Source of the DNA: a virus
Lineage: Duplodnaviria; Caudoviricetes
Length of the DNA stretch: 64,000 nt
Virus record (IMG/VR): IMGVR_UViG_3300010052_000170
Span: 5,927-69,926 of that record
Strand: one strand, 5' to 3'
The notes under the pieces were generated by a model. The model worked only from the letters and a program-made list of their open reading frames with translations, was not told the DNA's origin and did not search any database. Shown here in pieces: positions 36,281 to 47,751 of this stretch (positions are counted from its first letter, which is position 1; each line of letters starts with the position of its first letter). A program made the position numbers and the translations under genes.

Positions 36281-36694
36281 ATGCCATCCATCGAAACATC
36301 GATCTGGCTCGCTCTAAAGGCGAGGGGGGAGACACTTGTGCTATCGCCCGCGCTACCAATCGCCTGGCCGAACCTGAGCTTCACCAAGCCGGCGACGGGC
36401 TATTTGCGCGTCACCCACGTGCCGAACATGAACCGGCGGCTGTTCATTGGATCAACCGGTCCGCATCAGCGTCTTGGCCTCCTGCAGATCGACGTGTTGG
36501 GCAAGAAAAACGAGAACATAGCTGTTGCGGTTGAGGTGGCGGGGAAGGTCGCGGCGCACTTCCCAACCGATCTCCGGATGCGCTACGGCGACGTCACAGT
36601 TCGCGTCACCGCCGCGCCGACAGTCGCCCAGCCCATGGATGACGACACCCACGTCCTGGTGCCGGTGACGGTGCCCTATGAATGCTTCGCCTAG
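36281..36694 (+). CDS. Tail terminator protein
   Basis: IAWPN..F.KP...YLRVTHVPN...GLLQIDV...VTVPYE; precedes the tail tube. Confidence 0.75.
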   Translation: MPSIETSIWLALKARGETLVLSPALPIAWPNLSFTKPATGYLRVTHVPNMNRRLFIGSTGPHQRLGLLQIDVLGKKNENIAVAVEVAGKVAAHFPTDLRMRYGDVTVRVTAAPTVAQPMDDDTHVLVPVTVPYECFA

Positions 36695-37173
36695 CTAGGC
36701 ACTTTCGCCGGGGCGATAGCTAAACTGTCGACCCACTTGTTCGGGCGGCCATCAGCGAGATCACGAAGTCTGTCCTCGATGTGTGCCGGGTCCCAAACTG
36801 CAGCGCACTCTAACCCTTCGCATTCAGAAAGCGTCGCCGGCCTTTCGTAGTTGGTCGCCTGAAAAGCAGAATGATGCAGCGCCAGGCGGCCGCTGAACCT
36901 GTCTTGCTTGAAGAAGTACGGCTCTACGGCGTTCCCAGGCGCGAGGCCGCGATTTCCGAGGTATCGCCACCCGCCGTTGGTGAGCGCGTATTTCATCGTC
37001 CAAAGCTTGAAAGCAACTGGCAGCACGGGAATGTCATCGAGTGCGATCTCTTCGCGATTGGTGCCGGCGAAGAAGAGGATCAAAGGTGAGTAGGCAACTT
37101 GGCAATAACAATGCCGATCCGGATCTAGGTCGATCCTGAATATGTTGCCGACATCCCATTTCGCCATCGCCCA
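36691..37173 (-). CDS. Imm26-like immunity protein (orphan)
   Basis: WDVGNIF.I.L...YCQV...ATLSECEGLECAAVWDPAHIEDRLRD...GRPNKWVDSL. Confidence 0.75.
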   Translation of the reverse strand, partial: WAMAKWDVGNIFRIDLDPDRHCYCQVAYSPLILFFAGTNREEIALDDIPVLPVAFKLWTMKYALTNGGWRYLGNRGLAPGNAVEPYFFKQDRFSGRLALHHSAFQATNYERPATLSECEGLECAAVWDPAHIEDRLRDLADGRPNKWVDSLAIAPAKVPS

Positions 37174-37256
37174 CTCCTGTATCCGCTCGTCGGCCAGTTT
37201 TATCATCGCCTAACCGCCCTTCGGCAAGGCATCCCCACTACTGAAAGGAAAGACCG

Positions 37257-37730
37257 ATGACGGTGACAACCGCCTCGGGGTCGAAGGTATCGATCGGCCC
37301 GACAACCGCCGCGGCGAATGCCGCTGCCTATGCCGCCTTGACCTATGTCCCCATTGGCGAGGTGCAGAACCTTGGTGAGTTCGGCGACCAGTCGAACGAC
37401 GTGACGTTCACTTCGTTGTCGGATGGTCGCGTGCGGCACCTGAAGGGCGCCCGTGATGCCGGCGTGCTCGCCTTGGTCTGCGGCCGTGATCCTCTCGATG
37501 CGGGACAGGTGGCGCTCAGGGCAGCTGAAAAAACCAAATTTGCCTATGCGGTCAAGATCGAAGCGGCGGATGCTCTCGACGCGAATGACACCAACAGCGT
37601 GTTTTACTTTCACTGCCTGGTGCAGTCGGCGCGTGACAATTTCGGCGAGAGCGATGGCATCGTGACGACGACTTTCAATCTCGGCATAACGACCGGAATC
37701 ATCGAAGTTCCAGCGACGGTGGTGCCGTAA
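37257..37730 (+). CDS. Major tail tube protein
   Basis: YVPIGEVQNLGEFGD....VTF.SL.DGRVRHLKG..DAG...L....DP.DAGQVAL. Confidence 0.85.
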   Translation: MTVTTASGSKVSIGPTTAAANAAAYAALTYVPIGEVQNLGEFGDQSNDVTFTSLSDGRVRHLKGARDAGVLALVCGRDPLDAGQVALRAAEKTKFAYAVKIEAADALDANDTNSVFYFHCLVQSARDNFGESDGIVTTTFNLGITTGIIEVPATVVP

Positions 37731-38478: not shown

Positions 38479-38560
38479 TCTCTTTTTCAGTAACATTGGT
38501 TTCTGTCAGTGGCACTCTACATAGAGGCGTCTTATGCTTAGATCTCTTCGGGGGGATTCC

Positions 38561-40549
38561 ATGGCAGAGATGCATTACAAAGTTGAGGTGGAAAGCGACC
38601 ACATCAGAAAACTTACCAGTTCCAAGCCCGTTCCTGCCCTTGCGGAACTAGTTTGGAATTCGATGGACGCGGATTCAACTCGCGTAGACGTAGAGTTCGA
38701 TCGGTCTGAGCTCGGAATGCAAAGTATCTTCGTGCGGGACAATGGACACGGGATACCCTATGCGGAAGTGCCGAAACTCTTTGGCAAGCTTGGCGGTTCA
38801 TGGAAGGCCCACGGAAGTCGCTCAAAGACAAAATCGCGCATGTTGCACGGGAAAGAGGGCAAGGGACGCTTCAAAGCACTTGCTCTAGGTCGCGTCGCTG
38901 AGTGGCAAATTACATACCGCGAAGGAAGCAAGACGTTCGGGTACACGATCACGATTATCCGTGACAACTTAGTCGATGTTCGCGTCTCGGAGCTGACCGA
39001 AATTGACGCCGCGATAAAGCCTGGCGTCGAGGTGAAGATCACTGAATTGGATCGAGCCTTTAGGTCACTCGAACCCGAGCAATCGCTCTCTTCTCTCGCC
39101 CAGATATTCGCTTTGTATCTGACAGATTACTCGGACACCTCGCTTTTCGTTGACTATCAACGCGTCGATCCGTCGGCTTGGATCAAAAGCAGGTCAACGA
39201 TCTCCCTTGCGGCGATTGAAGAGGATGGGAACAGCTTCCCCGCCGAGGTTGAGTTGATAGAGTGGACCACCGCTTCTGAGCGTTGGCTTTTCCTCTGCGG
39301 GCCCGAAGGATTTCCATTCCATCGGATAAGTCCCCATTTCCATACGCCGGGCGTTCAGTTTTCCGCATATCTGAAATCTCCGTTTGTCAGCCATCTCCAG
39401 CAGCTTGGAATTTTGGACCTTGCCGAAATGAACATGTCGCTGCAGTCGGCTCTTGATGAAGCTGGGGGCAAAATAAAGCTCTTCTTCCAAGAACGAGATG
39501 CCCTTGCCGCTCGTACAGAAATCGATCAATGGAAAGCGGAGAGCGTTTATCCCTATCGAGAAGAACCTCGGACGACGGTAGAGCAGGCAGAGCGCAAGGT
39601 TTTTGAGATCGTCGCGCTCACCGTCAATCGGCACCTCCCAGAGTTTTCGGGCGCCAATCGTAAAACGAAGGCGTTTCAGTTGCGTATGCTCCGACAGGCC
39701 ATTGAGCGAGGCCCAGACGAACTTCAGCACATTCTTACAGAGGTTCTCGATCTCCCCGAGCGAAAGCAGCAGGAACTCTCGAAGTTGTTGGAAGAGGCTG
39801 ACTTAGCAAGTGTTATCAGCGCTTCAAAATTGGTGTCGGATCGCCTCAAATTTGTGCATGGGCTGGAGGCACTGCTCTTCGACCCGGACAGTCGGAAGCT
39901 CCTCAAGGAAAGGAGCCAACTCCATCGAATGATTGCGGAAAACAATACCTGGATTTTTGGCGAGGAATTCAATCTCACGGTTGACGATGAATCGCTGACT
40001 GAAGTTCTCAGAAAACACCGCAAGTTAGTTGGCGAAGATATTGTCATTGACCAACCTGTGAAGCGAATTGATGGAAAGGTCGGAATTGTCGACTTGATGC
40101 TCTCTCGGTCGGTCCCGCAAAATCACGCAGATGAGAGAGAGCATCTGGTGGTCGAATTGAAACGTCCGTCTGTGAAGGTTGGCGCAGACGAAATCACTCA
40201 GGTGAAAAAATACGCCTTTACGATCGCAGACGATGAACGATTTAGACATCTGAAGACACGGTGGAGCTTCTGGGTAATATCGAACGACCTTGATGCCTTC
40301 GCTCGTCGAGAGACAAGACATATGGGGAAACCCAAAGGCCAAGTGTTTCAGTCCGAGGACGGAAACATAGAGGTTTGGGTAAAGTCCTGGTCCGAAGTCT
40401 TAGCAGAGTGCAAGTCGCGGATGAAATTCGTCCAGGATCATTTGCAGGCAAATGTCGACAAGGAAAAGTCGCTTCGGTACCTCCAAAAAACCTACGACAA
40501 GTATCTGGCCGGGGTCGTGGAGATTGAAGCACCCGATGAGGCAGCCTGA
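38561..40549 (+). CDS. GHKL (MORC/HATPase_c_3-like) ATPase fused to a PD-(D/E)XK nuclease-like domain
   Basis: ELVWNSMDA, VRDNGHG, GKEGKGRF; C-terminal TWIFGEEF, IVDLML, LVVELKRP, EITQVKKYA. Confidence 0.85.
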   Translation: MAEMHYKVEVESDHIRKLTSSKPVPALAELVWNSMDADSTRVDVEFDRSELGMQSIFVRDNGHGIPYAEVPKLFGKLGGSWKAHGSRSKTKSRMLHGKEGKGRFKALALGRVAEWQITYREGSKTFGYTITIIRDNLVDVRVSELTEIDAAIKPGVEVKITELDRAFRSLEPEQSLSSLAQIFALYLTDYSDTSLFVDYQRVDPSAWIKSRSTISLAAIEEDGNSFPAEVELIEWTTASERWLFLCGPEGFPFHRISPHFHTPGVQFSAYLKSPFVSHLQQLGILDLAEMNMSLQSALDEAGGKIKLFFQERDALAARTEIDQWKAESVYPYREEPRTTVEQAERKVFEIVALTVNRHLPEFSGANRKTKAFQLRMLRQAIERGPDELQHILTEVLDLPERKQQELSKLLEEADLASVISASKLVSDRLKFVHGLEALLFDPDSRKLLKERSQLHRMIAENNTWIFGEEFNLTVDDESLTEVLRKHRKLVGEDIVIDQPVKRIDGKVGIVDLMLSRSVPQNHADEREHLVVELKRPSVKVGADEITQVKKYAFTIADDERFRHLKTRWSFWVISNDLDAFARRETRHMGKPKGQVFQSEDGNIEVWVKSWSEVLAECKSRMKFVQDHLQANVDKEKSLRYLQKTYDKYLAGVVEIEAPDEAA

Positions 40550-40617
40550 GGATAACGCGGTCCGCCTAATTGCCGGAGTCCAAACGGCTTGGATATGATC
40601 CTCGCGGGGTAGGGATC

Positions 40618-42045
40618 ATGACAGACGACATTTGGGCCGGGGATCATCTCAATCGCAAGGAAGATGCGCAGTTTCTTACTGCCTATCTGCTGCAGCGAAA
40701 CGAACTTGCGGTTGTTGTCGGCGACAAGGGCACTTCGATCAACGTGAGCGCACAATGGGGCGCCGGGAAGACGTTCTTTCTGACTAGGCTTGCCCGGCAA
40801 CTTCGAGAAGATGGCTATCGCGTTGCCGAGGTGAACGCCTGGCGAGACGATCATGCTGACGACCCGATTTTCGCGGTGATGTCTGCAGTGCTCAAGGCGC
40901 TCGGGAAGGGGACCAGGTCTGCGAAGGTTGGCAGAACGCTGCTCAACAGCGCAGGCAAGATTGCGGTGCGAGCGTTGAAGGGCGGAGTGAAGAAGGCTGC
41001 TGCGATCGTAATCGACAAAGACGATGTAGACGGCATCGCGGACGACCTCGCCAGGGTTTTTGCGGAAGCAGGAGAGGAGACCATCGGAGAATTTGCCGAC
41101 AAAGCACTGGAGCGCTTTGAAGACGGTCAGAAAGCAATTGATAATTTCCGTTCCGAATTGGCGAAAGGAGTGAAGGGGCAGAAGCCGCTGTTTGTCCTGG
41201 TCGACGAATTGGACCGCTGCAGGCCCACCTACGCGGTCTCCCTATTGGAGCGCATCAAGCACCTTTTTGACGTCCCCAATGTCATCTTCGTTTTTGGGAC
41301 GCACAGTGACCAGCTCACGCACACGATAAGGTCAGTTTATGGAATTGGCTTCGATGCCGATCGATATCTCCATCGCTTCTTCGACACCACGTATCAATTC
41401 GACAGCCCAAAAACTGTGAACTTCGTGCAGGCTAAATGGGATGCCCTTCAGTTTAAGGATGCGCGTTTCGTAGAGATACACGGCACCAGCCAGCAAGCCT
41501 GTATTGCTAAGATCGCCGACAACAAAAGGCTCTCGCTACGCGACATTGATCAATGCATGGACGCGCTTTGGACCATAACCGGTCAACTCGACCCGCGCGT
41601 ACCTGTACCTCTTTTGTATCTCTTCCCGCTGGTTGTTGCCTACCATCTGCGATTGACCGATGTATTCGAGTTTGGGGCGGGTGAACCGGCTCGGGCATCG
41701 CTGCGGCAAGATGAAATCCAAGCTTTTTATGACGGTTCGGAGATATACAGCCGACAGATTTACAGCCGCACATCTCAGAATCACATCTGGCAAACGATGT
41801 CTCTTTCGCCCTTGATTTCTGCGTTCCGGTCTCTGCTCGCCAACGGATTGAACCAAGATGTTGCGTCCGACAATCTCGGCTATTCATATGCAGAGCGCTA
41901 TCGAGACGCTGAATTCCGAATTCTTCACTCGAGCATGTCTCGAGGAGAAAAGGTCCCAACGATCCTAGAATCGTATGGGAGCATGATCAGACGGGTCGGG
42001 CGCATAGGAGCCACCCCTGAAAATGATGAAGGTGAGCGCCGCTAG
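40618..42045 (+). CDS. KAP-family P-loop NTPase
   Basis: AQWGAGKTFF (Walker A), VNAWRDDH, LFVLVDELDRCRPTYAVSLLERIKHLFDVPNVIFV, RYLHRFFD. Confidence 0.92.
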   Translation: MTDDIWAGDHLNRKEDAQFLTAYLLQRNELAVVVGDKGTSINVSAQWGAGKTFFLTRLARQLREDGYRVAEVNAWRDDHADDPIFAVMSAVLKALGKGTRSAKVGRTLLNSAGKIAVRALKGGVKKAAAIVIDKDDVDGIADDLARVFAEAGEETIGEFADKALERFEDGQKAIDNFRSELAKGVKGQKPLFVLVDELDRCRPTYAVSLLERIKHLFDVPNVIFVFGTHSDQLTHTIRSVYGIGFDADRYLHRFFDTTYQFDSPKTVNFVQAKWDALQFKDARFVEIHGTSQQACIAKIADNKRLSLRDIDQCMDALWTITGQLDPRVPVPLLYLFPLVVAYHLRLTDVFEFGAGEPARASLRQDEIQAFYDGSEIYSRQIYSRTSQNHIWQTMSLSPLISAFRSLLANGLNQDVASDNLGYSYAERYRDAEFRILHSSMSRGEKVPTILESYGSMIRRVGRIGATPENDEGERR

Positions 42046-42072: not shown

Positions 42073-42285
42073 TCAGTCCGAAGCTTTGAGATAACCATGG
42101 CTGATGAGCCAATCGCGGATGATGCGGCGGATCGCTTCAGAGCGGGGTGGTTTGTCCGTTTCATCCAGGGCGAAAGCGTCGATTGCGTCAGTGAGCTCCG
42201 GCTCCATGCGAACGCTAATATGTGGTTGCTTCCCGGTAGCCGGGCGGCCTCGTTTTTTAGGTGTTACATTTTTTGTTGACGGCAT
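42073..42285 (-). CDS. Ribbon-helix-helix (Arc/CopG-like) regulator
   Basis: KKRGRPATG...ISVRMEPEL..AID.F......RSEAIRRIIRDWL. Confidence 0.85.
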   Translation of the reverse strand: MPSTKNVTPKKRGRPATGKQPHISVRMEPELTDAIDAFALDETDKPPRSEAIRRIIRDWLISHGYLKASD

Positions 42286-43043: not shown

Positions 43044-43697
43044 ATGGCTACGAAGCAAGACGTCGGAATTGAACTGCCGGCCCTGAAAATCGGGCTGATG
43101 GAAGTGACCTTGATCGGCGACAGTCCGCTGATCGTCCATGCGTGGAGCCACAAGGCAAAGCGCGAAATGCTCGACAAACAGATGAAGAAGGCCAAGGGCG
43201 CCAAGGAGGCGAAAGACCCGAAGGCCGATTATGAGGCGAGCATGTATCGCTTGGCCGATGGTGGTTACGGCTTCCCCTCGGTGGGCTTCAAGGCCGCCGC
43301 AGTCACGGCAGGAACCAGCGTGGCAGGGTTGACCAAGATCGCGGCTCGGCAGGCTTTCCACGTTCTCGGTGAGGATGTGGACATCAAGGGTGCATTCGAA
43401 GGCTCGGTCTCTCGCGTCAACCTTGCCCGTATCGAAGGCGGAGATCCGCAGATGCGCGAAGACATGGTTCGCGTCGGCATGGGAACGGCAGACCTACGGT
43501 ACAGGGCTGAGTTCCCGAAATGGCATGCACGCGTTCTGGTTAGGTACAATCAGGGCGTCCTATCGGAAAGCCAGATCCTGAACCTGCTCAATACAGCTGG
43601 CTTCGCTGTCGGCGTAGGCGAGTGGCGGCCGGAAAAGGATGGGGCCTATGGGATGTTCCACGTTGCGACCGAAGCCGAACTGGAGACCTTGCAATGA
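43044..43697 (+). CDS. Cas7/RAMP-like protein (Vipr-like), putative RNA-guided effector
   Basis: EVTLIGDSPLIVH (RAMP beta1, like L...SPLHIG); YGFPSVGFKAA (like IPGSSLKGA); C-terminal G-loop AGFAVGVGEWRPEKDGAYGMFHV; AAGGAGG RBS; next to the GGY-NN array. Confidence 0.8.
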   Translation: MATKQDVGIELPALKIGLMEVTLIGDSPLIVHAWSHKAKREMLDKQMKKAKGAKEAKDPKADYEASMYRLADGGYGFPSVGFKAAAVTAGTSVAGLTKIAARQAFHVLGEDVDIKGAFEGSVSRVNLARIEGGDPQMREDMVRVGMGTADLRYRAEFPKWHARVLVRYNQGVLSESQILNLLNTAGFAVGVGEWRPEKDGAYGMFHVATEAELETLQ

Positions 43698-44209
43698 GGA
43701 TCGCCGGTTTCGAGTTTAGCGATGGTGCTCGGTTCCAGGCGGGAGCGCCGCACGACGCCAAGGCAGCGAAGGCCGTCGGCGACCATTTGGAGTTACTGAG
43801 GAAGCAGCACCAGAATGAGTTGACGCCGGAAGACGTCTTGGAAGACGCGAAGCACGACAACTCACCATTGCATCCGTACTTTGAATGGTCAGACAGTGCC
43901 GCTGCGCATCAGCACCGGCTCGCGCAAGCGCGAGGGTTAATCAGGAGCGTCGTCGCGATCTATGTCAGCGAGGATAAGCCGGCCGTGAGGACGAAGGCGT
44001 TCGTGCATATCGCTGAACCGTCTGCACCTCACTATCGAGAAGCATCGCACGCGATGAGCCAGCAGAAGACACGAAAGATGGTTCTTCAGCAGGCGTGGCG
44101 AGAGCTCCAAGCTTGGAAGTCCCGCTACAAACATCTGCAGGAATTTTCTGATCTTATCACCGTCATCGACGAGGTAGATCGGCATCTGCCAAAGGCCGCA
44201 AAGCATTAG
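43694..44209 (+). CDS. Accessory protein coupled to the RAMP-like gene
   Basis: ATGA overlap; LTPEDVLEDAKHDNSPLHPYFEWSDSAAAHQHRLAQARGLIRSV. Confidence 0.8.
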   Translation: MRIAGFEFSDGARFQAGAPHDAKAAKAVGDHLELLRKQHQNELTPEDVLEDAKHDNSPLHPYFEWSDSAAAHQHRLAQARGLIRSVVAIYVSEDKPAVRTKAFVHIAEPSAPHYREASHAMSQQKTRKMVLQQAWRELQAWKSRYKHLQEFSDLITVIDEVDRHLPKAAKH

Positions 44210-44217
44210 GGCTTCAA

Positions 44218-44590
44218 GGCAGGCGGGGTCTGGCATGTCCGGGTTCGGTGTGCCCTGGCGCGCCATGGTTAGGCAGGTGAAATGCGCGGAGCCGGATGCC
44301 CATCCGGCTGGCGAGGATCAAGGTAGGGCAGGCGTGGTAAGTCCAGGGAAGGTGGGACACGGCCGGGTAAGGTGCGGCAGGCTTGGCTAGGCGGGTTGCG
44401 GCTAGTCGCGGCACGGCAGGCAAGGCAAGCCTAGGTCCGATTTGGCAAGGTATGGCTTGGCTAGGCAGGCAAGGCACGGCGAGGTTCGGCGCGGTAAGCC
44501 TAGGTTCGGCGACGCATGTTATGGCAGGCGTGGTATGTTAAGCTAAGGCATCGTACGGTGAGGCCGGGCCTGCTCTGGCGAGGCAGGCAA
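44218..44590 (+). ncRNA. GGY-NN pentamer array (putative guide-RNA precursor, 7 units)
   Basis: Strict 5-nt periodicity; eight 4-nt GGCA breaks at 44218, 44272, 44327, 44376, 44415, 44464, 44523, 44582; begins 8 nt after the accessory stop and ends at a terminator. Confidence 0.85.
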
Positions 44591-44594
44591 ACGG

Positions 44595-44620
44595 GAGCGG
44601 TTCTTCGGAGCCGCTCTTTC
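44595..44620 (+). terminator. Terminator closing the array
   Basis: gagcggttc-TTCG-gagccgctc followed by tttc. Confidence 0.7.
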
Positions 44621-45218
44621 ATCTCCCGAACAGGCGTTGCAGCCACGACTTCCTGCTTGCTTCATGCTCCGTCTCCTCCCGGTGGGCAGCAACCACCTTT
44701 CCAACGTAGTCAACCTGAGGGCGGATGCCGAGTGCGCAAGCCTCGTTAGCGCAATCACCCGGCGGCAGCGTGTGTAGTTGTTCCGGCTCGATCTCTTGGT
44801 TGTTCAGCCTGACGCAGCCTGGACAGTCACCCCACGCCAACCTGATGTGAAATGTCACGTCATCTCCGAGATCGGTGCCGACCAACGCTTGCATTTGTCG
44901 ATGTCGAAAGTATGCGAAATTTGCATCCAGAACGGTGACTTCAATGCCCTTTATCGGGGCGGATAGTCCTTTCTCGGTTAGTGCGGATATAGCTTCATGC
45001 GACATGTCAGCATTTGCGCGAAGGCCAATGCTTTTCTTGGCTTCCCGGGGAAGGGGCTGCCCGGTCTGCCGAAACTGCCGCGCAATCTGGTGTGGATGAG
45101 TTCCTTCGTATTCCTCCATAAGAGCCGCAATTTGCTGGAAACACTCTGGCTTGAGGTATCCGAGGCGACGGCCTGATCGGTCGACGTGTTCAAGGAACTT
45201 GCTTCCATGGTCAGTCAT
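44619..45218 (-). CDS. Hypothetical moron
   Basis: 199 aa; CPGC and C...C..C motifs; ends SWLQRLFGR. Confidence 0.65.
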   Translation of the reverse strand: MTDHGSKFLEHVDRSGRRLGYLKPECFQQIAALMEEYEGTHPHQIARQFRQTGQPLPREAKKSIGLRANADMSHEAISALTEKGLSAPIKGIEVTVLDANFAYFRHRQMQALVGTDLGDDVTFHIRLAWGDCPGCVRLNNQEIEPEQLHTLPPGDCANEACALGIRPQVDYVGKVVAAHREETEHEASRKSWLQRLFGR

Positions 45219-45495
45219 GGAAGTTCTTTGTCATGTTCCGGCAAGATTTCTCGTTAAGCGGGCTGCCTTCCCGACTTTGGGCTTCGACGTAGGCAATCAT
45301 CTCGACAGACTTCTTGTCTCCAACGAGCCGGCTCGCCTCCTTCTTCGCCCACGCATAGGGCGCAAGATCCTTCAGAATAGGACCGCACTGGTAGGCGGTC
45401 GTTAGGCGAAAGATCGCCTTCTTAACGTCGCCATCACTCGGTTCAGCGTGGGCGACTGCCGACCAGAGACACAACGTCGAAACAAGCCAGCGCAT
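45211..45495 (-). CDS. Secreted small protein moron
   Basis: Signal peptide MRWLVSTLCLWSAVAHA; stop overlaps the start of 44619-45218. Confidence 0.6.
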   Translation of the reverse strand: MRWLVSTLCLWSAVAHAEPSDGDVKKAIFRLTTAYQCGPILKDLAPYAWAKKEASRLVGDKKSVEMIAYVEAQSREGSPLNEKSCRNMTKNFHD

Positions 45496-45558
45496 CCAAA
45501 ACCTCCCATTGAAAAATGGGCGGGACGATAGCGTTTGCCACCGTAAAAGGTAAAGCCC

Positions 45559-47751
45559 ATGGACGTCGCACAGCTTGGTCTTGAGGTCCGAAGCGAGCAG
45601 GTCGAACGCGGCACCTCGTCTTTGAATCGCTTTGCCGGCGCAGCCAAGCAGGCGGAGGCGGCAACAAAAGGGATCACGACTGGCGCTCGCGGTGCAGCTA
45701 GCGCTGTGCAGGCCGTGGCTGGTGCCAGCGACAATGCGGCAGGTGCTCTCAATCGTGAGGCTGGAGCTGCGCGGAATGCTTCCGCCGCCATGAAGGGGCA
45801 CGCCACCGCGGTCAATGACAATGCGAGGCGCATGGGAGGTAGCTTTTCTGGCCTAGCCGCTCAGTTTCAAGACATCGGGGTCACTGCTGCCGGTGGCATG
45901 AACCCCCTCATAATCGGCCTGCAGCAAGGCACACAGATTGCCGGTGCAATGGAAATGGCGATGCAAAGCGGCGCATCCGCGACTGGTGTATTTGGCGCCG
46001 CGCTAAAATCCCTCCTCTCGCCTGTCTCGCTCCTTTCGATCGGCCTTGCTGTGCTACTCGCCGCCGGCCTTCAGATGGTGAACTGGTCGAAGGCCGCTGC
46101 TGCCGTACTAGATGGGCTGGCCGGTATCCTGGAAGATATTGCGCCGTACGCCGTTGCCGCTGCGGCTGGGTTGGCGCTGATTTACGCGCCGGCCATCATC
46201 GGAGGCCTGACACTCCTTTCCGAGATGATCCTTGGGCTAACGGCAAGGCTCATCGGATTGGCTGCTGGCTTCGCTCTCGCCAACCCGGCCACTGCCTTCA
46301 TTGCCGGTGTCACAGCGGCAGTAGCGGCCGCGGTCATTTTCAGGGACGAATTGACCAGAATTCTGGGGGTGGATGTCGTTGGCGCTGCCAAGGCTGGGGC
46401 AAATTTTATCGTCAACAGCTTCGAAGCCGCCTTTTCAGATGTGAAGTTCATCTGGAACAATTTCGGCGACATGATGGGGGCCGCTGTTGTCGGCGGGGTC
46501 AACATTGCTATCCGTGCCATCGACGAACTTATCCAGAAAGCATCGGAAGGCATCGACTGGCTCATTAAGAAGGTCAACCCATACCTGGAAATGGGCGGCA
46601 TGGACCCACTCAGGGAAGTGGGCGGAAGCTTTTCGCTCAAGCCACTCGCCAACCCATACGCTGACCGTTTCGCCAAGGCCAACACCTCCCACGCTGCAGA
46701 AATCGCCGACATCATGAGCCAGGATCGGCTCGGCCAGTTTGGTACAGCGATTGCAAATCGCGCTTCGGCCGCGTCTGGCAAGTTGAAGGAACTGGCCGAT
46801 TGGGTTGGAAAGGTCGACGAAAAGACCGGCAAGAAGGCGGGTAAAAGCGAGGCCGAAAAATACTCATCGATCATCGACGGAGCGAACCGCCGCATAGCTT
46901 CGTTGCAGTCCGAATACGACGCGCTCGGCATGACCGAGTTCGCCGCCGCTAAACTAGCGTATCAGACAGACATGCTGAACGAGGCGCAGCGCAAGGGGAT
47001 CACCCTTACCGCGGCTCAGAAGGCTGAGATTTCTGATCTCGCAGGCCGCTTGGCTTCGCTTGAGATCGCCACGCGCGACGCCCGCGATGCGATGGACTTC
47101 GCGAAGGACATGACGAAGGGCTTCGTTTCGGATCTCCGCTCAGGCTTGGAGCAGGGAAAAGGCTTCTGGCAGAGCTTCGGCAATGCGGCGCTGAACGTCC
47201 TCGACAAGATCACAGACAAGTTGCTTGACGACTTGCTGAACGCCATCTTCAGGGTGAACTCGGCAGGGTCTTCTGGCGGCGGCGGTTTCTGGGGCATCCT
47301 CGGAAGCCTGTTCGGCCTTGGTGGGGGAGGTGGCAGCGGCCTCGGTGGTCTGACCTGGGATAGCTGGGCTAAAGGCGGTTACACCGGACCTGGAGGCAAG
47401 TACGAGCCTGCTGGCACGGTACATCGAGGCGAATATGTCTTCTCGGCCGCTGCAACCCGCATGATCGGCGTGGCCAACCTCGACCGTGCTCACAGGAGTG
47501 CTCGGCGCGGCTATGCCGAGGGCGGCTACGTCGACAACAGCACACCACGTCTGTTTGCCCCGGCAAACCGGAATGACGCTCAGCCAATCGTCTATTCGCC
47601 GACGATCCAGATCGACGCTCGTGGCGCAGAGAATGGTGACGACATCCGCCGTGCCGGCCAGGAGCTTCTGAAGCAGATGCGCGGCGAATTCTACAACAAC
47701 ACGAAGAAGGCGTTGCAGCTGCTCAAGATCAACACCGGAGGGCGGTTCTGA
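45559..47751 (+). CDS. Tape measure protein (730 aa)
   Basis: MDVAQLGLEVRS; AAQFQDIGVTAAGGMNP...LQQGTQI; Ala/Gly-rich; AKGGYTGPGGKYEPAGTVHRGEYVF. Confidence 0.92.
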   Translation: MDVAQLGLEVRSEQVERGTSSLNRFAGAAKQAEAATKGITTGARGAASAVQAVAGASDNAAGALNREAGAARNASAAMKGHATAVNDNARRMGGSFSGLAAQFQDIGVTAAGGMNPLIIGLQQGTQIAGAMEMAMQSGASATGVFGAALKSLLSPVSLLSIGLAVLLAAGLQMVNWSKAAAAVLDGLAGILEDIAPYAVAAAAGLALIYAPAIIGGLTLLSEMILGLTARLIGLAAGFALANPATAFIAGVTAAVAAAVIFRDELTRILGVDVVGAAKAGANFIVNSFEAAFSDVKFIWNNFGDMMGAAVVGGVNIAIRAIDELIQKASEGIDWLIKKVNPYLEMGGMDPLREVGGSFSLKPLANPYADRFAKANTSHAAEIADIMSQDRLGQFGTAIANRASAASGKLKELADWVGKVDEKTGKKAGKSEAEKYSSIIDGANRRIASLQSEYDALGMTEFAAAKLAYQTDMLNEAQRKGITLTAAQKAEISDLAGRLASLEIATRDARDAMDFAKDMTKGFVSDLRSGLEQGKGFWQSFGNAALNVLDKITDKLLDDLLNAIFRVNSAGSSGGGGFWGILGSLFGLGGGGGSGLGGLTWDSWAKGGYTGPGGKYEPAGTVHRGEYVFSAAATRMIGVANLDRAHRSARRGYAEGGYVDNSTPRLFAPANRNDAQPIVYSPTIQIDARGAENGDDIRRAGQELLKQMRGEFYNNTKKALQLLKINTGGRF

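What the first reader, a model, noticed from the sequence alone, without database searches (positions are those of the whole stretch)
44218..44590. Array grammar: 7 units of GGY-NN pentamers separated by 4-nt GGCA register breaks
Hand parse, NN only. U1 44222-71: GG CT AT CG TC GT CT GC AT TA. U2 44276-326: degenerate. U3 44331-75: GT AA CA AA GG AC CG AA GC. U4 44380-414: TT TA GG GC TA GC AC. U5 44419-63: AA AA TA CC TT AA AT TT TA. U6 44468-522: AA AC GA TC GC AA TA TC GA AT AT. U7 44527-81: GT AT AA AA AT AC GA CG CT CT GA. The first three bases are mostly GGC/GGT, with tolerated variants (GTC, GCC, GTT, GCT, CGC), while NN varies freely. That is the reverse of simple microsatellite decay. 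Inference: GGCA|GGY marks processing sites that yield guides of about 35-55 nt.
Basis: partly seen in the sequence, partly recalled or inferred. Interest (0 to 1): 0.85.

Follow-up and report, generated by a model that had tools for sequence, protein, structure and literature searches.

The report
Phage VIPR guide-RNA array, staggered type
The five-base rhythm is real and is a guide-RNA array of a VIPR system, a CRISPR-like phage weapon first described in 2026 preprints; here a Mesorhizobium-type prophage appears to aim it at rival phages' tail genes and at their own VIPR genes, so this is a good new example of a known kind.

Summary
Window 44218-44590 (+) is a GGY-NN pentamer array broken by 4-nt GGCA register shifts.

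It is the vrRNA array of a VIPR system (bioRxiv 10.64898/2026.04.26.720920). It lies directly after a Cas7-like vipr gene (43044-43697) and an accessory vap gene (43694-44209), and it ends at a terminator (44593-44621). The GGCA break most likely corresponds to that preprint's "staggered" arrays.

- **Relatives:** nearly all of 103 related loci carry such an array on the vipr strand. In 4445 pentamers, G/G/Y are fixed while positions 4-5 have 1.94 and 1.96 bits of entropy. Of 378 breaks, 327 are 4 nt long and 221 read GGCA.
- **Code:** the published 1-nt-skip code is reproduced here. 17 guides have hits of 90% or better, against 1 in each control.
- **Unit boundaries:** matches fall to background across the breaks, so each unit acts as a separate guide.
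- **Targets:** U1 spells the conserved vap motif of rival VIPRs (up to 20/22), while the phage's own vap scores 15/22. U3 matches a rival tail tube gene 18/18. U4 matches a tail sheath gene 14/14. U5-U7 have no credible target.
- **Correction:** "U2" is a conserved leader hairpin, not a decayed unit.

RNA processing is untested. The scan has already noted VIPR arrays in at least 182 other genomes.

The parts
43044..43697 (+). vipr: 217-aa Cas7-like RAMP protein
   Evidence: A profile of 26 homologues hits PDB 36pp_D 'SUSP1 Vipr protein' at E=8e-6, aligning GVGEWRP to GVGDWRP and R154 to R138. The AF2 model (pLDDT 78) has only Cas7-family proteins among its best Foldseek hits: Cmr4, Csm3, Cas7-11 and type VII Cas7. 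Also phrog_4652.
43694..44209 (+). vap: 171-aa accessory gene whose start overlaps the vipr stop (ATGA)
   Evidence: A 121-180 aa gene (all but two of 150 aa or more) follows vipr in 97 of 104 loci. phrog_15946. The AF2 model has pLDDT 94. It gives only weak winged-helix-like matches (MecI Z 5.6) and has a long C-terminal helix.
44218..44221 (+). First GGCA, 8 nt after the vap stop codon
44222..44276 (+). Guide unit U1: 10 pentamers plus a terminal GGCAG. Its NN letters spell GLIRSVLAIY
   Evidence: It matches the conserved vap motif of relatives at 18-20/22 (L028, L040, L045 = 20). The own vap site at 43934 scores 15/22. On the 20 core positions the best non-self hit is 19/20, and no shuffled-order control of 150 reached that.
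44277..44330 (+).
   Evidence: Found in at least 18 distinct loci just before the array. 93% of stem cells are paired. 11 cells changed on both sides, against 3.9 in shuffles, and 0 of 500 shuffles reached that. Fold.
44331..44375 (+). Guide unit U3: 9 pentamers, followed by GGCA at 44376-44379
   Evidence: 18/18 in codon phase at L056:3899, codon 66 of a major tail protein (phrog_158). Null 0/150. The homologous own tube gene differs at this site.
44380..44414 (+). Guide unit U4: 7 pentamers, followed by GGCA at 44415-44418
   Evidence: 14/14 in codon phase at L055:3002, in a tail sheath gene (phrog_205, DUF3383). The shuffled null reaches this in 0.7% of trials.
44419..44463 (+). Guide unit U5: 9 pentamers with AT-rich NN, followed by GGCA at 44464-44467
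   Evidence: Parse. No credible target: the 29 exact IMG/VR hits all lie in contigs of 21-50% G+C, all but one at 41% or less.
44468..44522 (+). Guide unit U6: 11 pentamers, followed by GGCA at 44523-44526
   Evidence: Parse. The best hit is 17/22, in the own tape measure gene at 46843 (p about 0.03) and at the homologous L005 site. Nothing better turned up in relatives, IMG/VR or metagenomes.
44527..44585 (+). Guide unit U7: 11 pentamers plus the final GGCA
   Evidence: Parse. Best hit 17/22 in the own tape measure gene at 47197 (p about 0.06). No hit with 3 or fewer mismatches in 202 Mesorhizobium genomes and no exact hit in IMG/VR.
44593..44621 (+). Intrinsic terminator: 11-bp stem, UUCG loop, then UUU
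   Evidence: Fold of -18.1 kcal/mol, z = -2.6. The same hairpin ends the array in L055.

Best explanation
The tract is the vrRNA (guide RNA) array of a VIPR system carried by a Mesorhizobium-type prophage. It is transcribed on the + strand together with, or just after, vipr and vap, and it stops at the terminator at 44593-44621.

By analogy with the SUSP1 system, one Vipr protomer binds each pentamer. It buries the GGY bases and presents the two NN bases. The NN bases of one unit then pair with double-stranded DNA in the pattern NNx, skipping every third base (usually the codon wobble position). This blocks transcription of the target.

Each 4-nt GGCA step shifts the 5-nt register by one base. 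A Vipr filament therefore cannot run across it, and each unit of 7-11 pentamers behaves as its own guide.

The guides with identifiable targets point at other phages. U1 points at the conserved core of rival phages' vap genes. U3 points at a rival tail tube gene. U4 points at a rival tail sheath gene. The system therefore most likely serves competition between phages.

Shown here: the grammar, its conservation, its linkage to vipr-vap, the skip-1 code, the unit boundaries and the targets. Inferred: expression, cutting at GGCA, filament formation and silencing.
For: - **Protein:** sequence homology to the solved SUSP1 Vipr, with the GGY-contact residues conserved (R154, E193, W194, R195), and a Cas7-like fold.
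- **Linkage:** arrays on the vipr strand in 98 of 104 loci. The other six are four cut contigs and two arrays that fall below my detection threshold.
- **Grammar:** GGY conserved and NN at maximal entropy; GGCA breaks; modal unit length 9-10 pentamers.
- **Code:** 352 unique guides against 1.47 Mb of array-masked related loci. With skip 1, 17 guides reach 90% or better and 4 are perfect, against 1 and 0 in both controls. Skips 0, 2 and 3 equal the controls.
- **Targets:** the top hits inspected lie in codon phase in phage genes: vap, the Vipr G-loop, tail tube, tail sheath, tape measure, a CI-like repressor, an ejection protein and a ParB-methylase.
- **Boundaries:** agreement falls to background across the breaks.
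- **RNA:** the array folds no better than shuffled sequence (z 0 to -0.6), as expected for a protein-bound single strand.
- **Literature:** 10.64898/2026.04.26.720920.720927 and 10.64898/2026.10.15.759431.
Against: - There are no RNA data, so transcription, the unit ends and binding by Vipr are unproven.
- Three of six guides (U5-U7) have no credible target.
- The units lack the invariant 3' tail and pseudoknot of the only experimentally characterised type (II).
- The preprint says its staggered arrays were not among the architectures confirmed by small-RNA sequencing, and I could read only the legend of its figure.
- The homology to SUSP1 Vipr covers only the C-terminal 55-65 residues.
- U4's 14/14 hit is only moderately significant (about 1% per guide).
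Confidence: 0.93

Rival explanations
1. The array is a Vipr-bound RNA whose role is local regulation of the phage's own tail operon, not attack on other phages. It sits just upstream of the tape measure gene, and U6 and U7 might weakly target that gene.
For: The best in-window hits of U6 and U7 both lie in the own tape measure gene on the sense strand and in codon phase, at 17/22 each (p about 0.03 and 0.06). In relatives (L002) and in Gordonia phage ODay the locus also sits just before the tape measure gene.
Against: 17/22 (77%) is below the preprint's 80% cut-off. The shuffled-order null against related loci reaches 17 in 39-67% of trials. No relative's tape measure gene matches better. The guides with strong hits (U1, U3, U4) match other phages better than self.
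Confidence: 0.04
2. The tract is a G-rich structural element (for example runs of two-tetrad G-quadruplexes in DNA or RNA) or plain sequence drift, with no guide function.
For: GG every 5 nt on a strand that is 43% G could in principle form two-layer quadruplexes. This is from general knowledge and was not computed.
Against: A quadruplex needs neither a pyrimidine at position 3 nor exact 4-nt GGCA steps. It does not explain strict linkage to vipr-vap on one strand in about 100 loci. It also does not explain why the NN letters spell phage genes only under the skip-1 rule.
Confidence: 0.02
3. The tract is protein-coding, for example a frameshift extension of a tail assembly chaperone ahead of the tape measure gene.
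For: Its position between tail genes, where siphophages place the chaperone frameshift product. This is from general knowledge.
Against: No + strand frame spans the tract: the longest ORFs there are 51, 52 and 77 aa. The 5-nt period with 4-nt steps scrambles any reading frame. The NN letters vary freely between close relatives.
Confidence: 0.01

Closest known systems
VIPR systems with 'staggered' vrRNA arrays (bioRxiv 10.64898/2026.04.26.720920, fig. S18 legend)
   Same: A Vipr RAMP gene, one vap gene and tail-less GGY/NN units laid end to end. The legend's 1-nt overlap between neighbouring vrRNAs fits GGCA|G, where the last pentamer GGCAG shares its final G with the next unit. Viral (provirus) location and targets in other phages.
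   Different: The preprint gives only a figure legend and no sequencing support for this architecture. I measured the junction consensus (GGCA, then GGCC, then GGCT), the unit-length distribution, the leader hairpin, the skip-1 code for this clade and specific targets. Which of types I-VII this clade belongs to cannot be read from the text that is held.
Type II VIPR of Escherichia phage SUSP1 (and the Pseudomonas fulva prophage); structure PDB 36pp
   Same: A homologous Vipr with the same G-loop (GVG[D/E]WRP) and thumb arginine. GGY/NN pentamers. The NNx (1-nt skip) code aligned to codon wobble positions. Guides aimed at rival elements, including rival VIPR genes.
   Different: SUSP1 vrRNAs are about 100 nt long, with 9-16 repeats and an invariant 3' tail bearing a pseudoknot, and they are spaced apart. 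Here the units have 7-11 repeats, no tail, and only 4 nt between them. The vap proteins show no detectable similarity to any solved chain.
Class 1 CRISPR-Cas Cas7 backbone with crRNA
   Same: A RAMP fold (best structural matches Csm3, Cmr4, Cas7-11). One protomer binds per fixed step of guide RNA, with thumb-induced base flipping (from the cited preprints).
   Different: There are no repeat-spacer array, no cas1/cas2 and no other cas genes in the ORFs scanned. The step is 5 nt with 2 informative bases, not 6 nt with 5. The guide information is non-contiguous.

Membership tests
VIPR system | Vipr protein with a RAMP fold (RRM core, glycine-rich loop, thumb) | tested here: met
   AF2 model with pLDDT 78 and pTM 0.74. 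All Foldseek PDB hits with E<=1e-3 are Cas7-family subunits, at probability 1.0 and TM about 0.45-0.5. The G-loop region itself is modelled poorly (residues 187-196 have pLDDT <50).
VIPR system | Sequence homology to an experimentally characterised Vipr | tested here: met
   phmmer E=3e-4 and profile E=8e-6 against PDB 36pp_D (SUSP1 Vipr). The match covers residues 144-210 only.
VIPR system | GGY-contact residues (SUSP1 R138, D177, W178, R179; also H17 and K33) | tested here: met
   R154, E193 (D to E), W194 and R195 align to them and are invariant in 26 homologues. H32 and K37/K39 are invariant, but their equivalence to H17 and K33 is only inferred because the N-terminus does not align by sequence.
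VIPR system | vrRNA of tandem pentamers with conserved GGY and hypervariable NN, next to vipr | tested here: met
   Units here have 7-11 pentamers; the preprint reports 9-16 repeats.
VIPR system | NN dinucleotides read targets with a 1-nt skip; targets lie in mobile elements | tested here: met
   Skip 1: 17 guides at 90% or better and 4 perfect, against 1 and 0 in controls. Skips 0, 2 and 3 show no excess. Targets listed.
VIPR system | vrRNAs are expressed, co-purify with Vipr, and silence transcription of matching DNA | not testable with these tools
   Needs small-RNA sequencing, pull-down and reporter assays.
VIPR type II (SUSP1-like) architecture | Each vrRNA ends in an invariant 3' tail with a pseudoknot | tested here: not met
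   Units are separated by only 4 nt. The only non-repeat elements are one leader hairpin and the terminator.
VIPR staggered array | Neighbouring vrRNAs overlap by 1 nt, so the end of one marks the start of the next | tested here: met
   A 4-nt step is a pentamer minus one base. 327 of 378 breaks are 4 nt long, and target footprints stop at the step. I read only the legend of fig. S18, so the identity with that figure is inferred.
CRISPR-Cas | Repeat-spacer array plus cas1/cas2 or an effector module | tested here: not met
   No CRISPR-type repeats at 42-47 kb. No Cas families among the 20 neighbouring ORFs scanned in Pfam.

The most novel reading that the evidence does not exclude
In this tail-less 'staggered' class, the one-base register slip at GGCA may itself be the unit delimiter. 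It would end one Vipr filament and seed the next, so no ribozyme, handle or dedicated nuclease would be needed. Separately, a phage that carries an anti-vap guide may protect its own vap through the only synonymous route open under a wobble-skipping code: switching six-fold codons (Leu CTN to TTA, Arg CGN to AGG, Ser TCN to AGC), as seen at 43937-43948. Neither point is stated in the three preprints I read.
Probability: 0.4. Interest if true: 0.5.

Novelty: new member of a known kind. Interest (0 to 1): 0.33.

Why it matters
VIPR is a months-old discovery, and only its type II form has been studied at the bench. This locus is a clean natural example of the untested tail-less 'staggered' form. 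It sits in a rhizobial prophage, and three of its six guides have predicted targets.

The relatives I gathered give a quantitative grammar: the junction consensus, the unit lengths and the leader. They also give an independent replication of the skip-1 code in a distant clade.

The same GGCA-type arrays occur in cultured Mycobacterium and Gordonia phages (Saal, ODay). The processing question could therefore be answered in M. smegmatis. None of this changes the picture already in print.

Tried and rejected
- **CRISPR-like repeats, known RNA families, tandem repeats:** nothing found.
- **Coding reading:** rejected, because no + strand frame spans the tract.
- **Before finding the literature:** from memory I considered a TRAP-like or filament-protein binding site, a Rho loading site on the minus strand, and G-quadruplexes. 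The Vipr homology superseded these ideas.
- **Targets for U5-U7:**
  - U7 with 3 or fewer mismatches in 202 Mesorhizobium genomes: none.
  - Exact IMG/VR scans of full U6 and U7, and of the first nine NN of U6: none.
  - The first nine NN of U7 and all of U5 gave 3 and 29 hits. All but two lie in contigs of 41% G+C or less, and most are out of frame, so I treat them as chance.
  - One metagenome hit for U6, in a 32% G+C contig outside any ORF, is also chance.
17/22 each is borderline within the window and unremarkable against relatives. Not supported.
- **vap fold:** no Foldseek match with E<=1e-3, and VIA-align Z no higher than 5.6. It is winged-helix-like at best.
- **VIPR type (I-VII):** the text held does not say which types are staggered.
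- **Self-recoding of vap:** only the window and L022 carry the anti-vap guide, and they share the same recoded segment. This is a single lineage, so the evidence is suggestive only.

Full report
**What is there.** Window 44218-44590 on the + strand reads as GGY-NN pentamers in runs of 7-11. The runs are separated by 4-nt GGCA steps that shift the 5-nt register by one base. GG-to-GG distances peak at multiples of 5 and, across steps, at multiples of 5 minus 1. The strand is 43% G. Tandem Repeats Finder and Rfam do not report the tract, because two of every five bases vary. The window belongs to an IMG/VR provirus of 69.9 kb whose closest protein relatives are in Mesorhizobium and other Rhizobiales.

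**Context.** The tract lies in the tail module of a siphovirus-like prophage. The genes around it are:
- a tail terminator (36281-36694), a tube protein (37257-37730) and a tape measure protein (45559-47751);
- directly upstream, a 217-aa gene (43044-43697, phrog_4652);
- an overlapping 171-aa gene (43694-44209, phrog_15946).

The tract starts 8 nt after the stop codon of the second gene. It ends at a strong hairpin with a UUCG loop and a U run (44593-44621, z = -2.6).

**Identification.** The 217-aa protein hits one solved structure, PDB 36pp 'SUSP1 Vipr protein'. The E-value is 3e-4 for the single sequence and 8e-6 for a profile of 26 homologues. The alignment places GVGEWRP on GVGDWRP and R154 on R138. 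That led to three 2026 preprints on VIPR, Viral Interference Programmable Repeat systems. In these systems:
- a small RAMP protein (Vipr) coats a vrRNA made of GGY/NN pentamers, one protomer per pentamer;
- the protein buries GGY (contacts R138, D177, W178, R179) and exposes NN;
- the NN dinucleotides pair with double-stranded DNA while skipping every third base;
- binding silences transcription, and natural targets are rival phages and satellites.

The residues that align to the GGY contacts are invariant in this clade. The AF2 model (pLDDT 78) finds only Cas7-family subunits among its best Foldseek hits. The preprint also mentions 'staggered arrays', in which neighbouring vrRNAs overlap by 1 nt (fig. 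S18 legend). A GGCA step fits that description if the last pentamer GGCAG shares its final G with the next unit. The preprint says that only its ribozyme-type and single-guide architectures were confirmed by RNA sequencing.

**Conservation.** I fetched 103 related loci with 50-93% Vipr identity, from genomes and IMG/VR. Ninety-eight of the 104 loci (window included) have an array of 60 nt or more on the vipr strand, and none has one on the other strand. Most arrays begin about 600 nt after the G-loop codons, which is just after vap. Of the six exceptions, four are cut contigs and two (L035, L055) have arrays below my threshold. A vap gene follows vipr in 97 loci.

Counts over 433 units and 4445 pentamers:

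| Position | Composition | Entropy (bits) |
|---|---|---|
| 1 | G 0.95 | 0.38 |
| 2 | G 0.80, T 0.15 | 0.95 |
| 3 | C 0.60, T 0.32 | 1.32 |
| 4 | near-uniform | 1.94 |
| 5 | near-uniform | 1.96 |

Of 378 register breaks, 327 are 4 nt long: 221 GGCA, 29 GGCC and 22 GGCT. Internal units peak at 9-10 pentamers.

The stretch 44277-44330 is a leader, not a degenerate unit. It consists of an 8-bp hairpin (44290-44309) followed by GGCGAGGATCAAGGTAGGGCA. At least 18 distinct loci carry it right before their arrays. Its stem is 93% paired and has more two-sided changes than any of 500 shuffles. In most of those loci the leader follows vap directly. In the window and in L022, unit U1 sits between vap and the leader.

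**Does the clade use the published code?** I masked all arrays and scanned 352 unique guides against the 1.47 Mb of related loci, using 0-3 skipped bases. Controls used reversed guides and guides with shuffled NN order. Counts for controls are given as reversed / shuffled:

| Skip | Real, ≥90% | Real, perfect | Controls, ≥90% | Controls, perfect |
|---|---|---|---|---|
| 0 | 3 | 0 | 1 / 3 | 0 / 0 |
| 1 | 17 | 4 | 1 / 1 | 0 / 0 |
| 2 | 1 | 0 | 0 / 1 | 0 / 0 |
| 3 | 2 | 0 | 1 / 2 | 0 / 0 |

Only skip 1 gives an excess. The inspected top hits lie in codon phase in phage genes: vap, the Vipr G-loop coding sequence, tail tube, tail sheath, tape measure, a CI-like repressor, an ejection protein and a ParB-methylase.

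**Are the GGCA steps guide boundaries?** I took the 24 guides with a non-self hit of 90% or better. Inside the unit, NN agreement is about 95%, including 47/48 for the first pentamer after the step. I then extended the same target register into the neighbouring unit. Agreement there was 26-27% upstream and 27-36% downstream. The units therefore read different targets. Whether the RNA is physically cut there remains untested.

**What this array targets.**
- **U1** spells G-L-I-R-S-V-L-A-I-Y. It matches the most conserved vap motif (GLIRSVVAIY) in dozens of relatives at 18-20 of 22 positions. No shuffled-order control of 150 reached its score on the 20 core positions. The phage's own vap scores 15/22. 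It uses TTA, AGG and AGC where most relatives use CTN, CGN and TCN or GCN.
  - Switching between six-fold codon families is the only synonymous way to change codon positions 1-2. This looks like self-avoidance.
  - Only the window and L022 carry this guide, and they share the recoded segment, so it counts as one event.
- **U3** matches 18/18 at codon 66 of a major tail protein in L056 (null 0/150). That protein is a 31% homologue of the window's own tube protein, which differs at the site.
- **U4** matches 14/14 in a tail sheath gene of L055 (null 0.7%).
- **U5-U7** have no credible target.

In the other direction, a guide of the Mesorhizobium sp. UC74_2 prophage (L022) matches the window's tail terminator gene at 18/20.

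**Mechanism, with status.**
- Shown here: the grammar, its conservation, its linkage to vipr-vap, the skip-1 code, the unit autonomy and the targets.
- Taken from the preprints for type II: the filament with one protomer per pentamer, the R-loop triplex and transcriptional silencing.
- Inferred here: the one-base slip ends one filament and starts the next, and the exposed junction is trimmed. The array RNA folds no better than shuffled sequence (z 0 to -0.6), which fits a protein-coated single strand.

**The accessory protein.** The vap protein gives a confident model (pLDDT 94) with only weak winged-helix-like matches and a long C-terminal helix. This is compatible with the preprint's 'predicted DNA-binding' vaps but does not prove it.

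**Novelty.** The kind is known, the staggered form included. This scan already holds 218 VIPR notes from at least 182 genomes, some with GGCA-separated arrays. New here are one more member, measured grammar for the staggered class, a replication of the code in a rhizobial clade, named targets for three guides, the leader hairpin and the possible six-fold-codon escape. Cultured phages Saal (Mycobacterium) and ODay (Gordonia) carry the same GGCA-type arrays next to 41-43% identical Vipr genes. They offer a bench system for the processing question.

Noticed in passing
window 38534-42045 (+): A GHKL-type ATPase (HATPase_c_3, phrog_6203, 671 aa) and a KAP-family P-loop NTPase (491 aa) sit as a pair inside the tail module, between the tube or chaperone genes and the VIPR locus. 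They look like a defence-type insertion.
   Followed up: no
window 36691-37206 (-): An Imm26-family immunity protein gene on the opposite strand, between the tail terminator and tail tube genes.
   Followed up: no
window 36644-36672 (+), guide at L022:4924: A guide of the related prophage in Mesorhizobium sp. UC74_2 matches the window's tail terminator gene at 18/20 in codon phase. The window's phage is therefore itself a predicted VIPR target.
   Followed up: partly
L037:11222 guide; targets L083:7428 and L065:2710: One relative's first guide spells V-G-V-G-E-W-R-P-E-K, the Vipr G-loop itself, and matches other phages' vipr genes at 20/22 but its own locus at 15/22 at best.
   Followed up: partly
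L086:11218-12353, L087:11218-12132, L091:7082-8015: Some relatives carry arrays of 0.9-1.1 kb, several times longer than the window's.
   Followed up: no
L106 (Mycobacterium phage Saal) 2093-2344; L107 (Gordonia phage ODay) 3124-3276: Cultured actinobacteriophages carry GGY-NN arrays with the same GGCA steps, next to Vipr homologues annotated as hypothetical (Saal gp51, ODay gp19). In ODay the locus also sits between the tail chaperones and the tape measure gene.
   Followed up: partly
window 44619-45218 (-) and 45211-45801 (-): Two opposite-strand ORFs (199 and 196 aa) with no Pfam, PHROG or NCBIfam match lie between the array terminator and the tape measure gene. In L002 the array abuts the tape measure gene directly, so these look like an insertion.
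   Followed up: no
window 42073-42285 (-): A ribbon-helix-helix (CopG-type) gene upstream of the VIPR operon and divergent from it (PF01402, E=1.3e-5). It could be a regulator of the locus.
   Followed up: no
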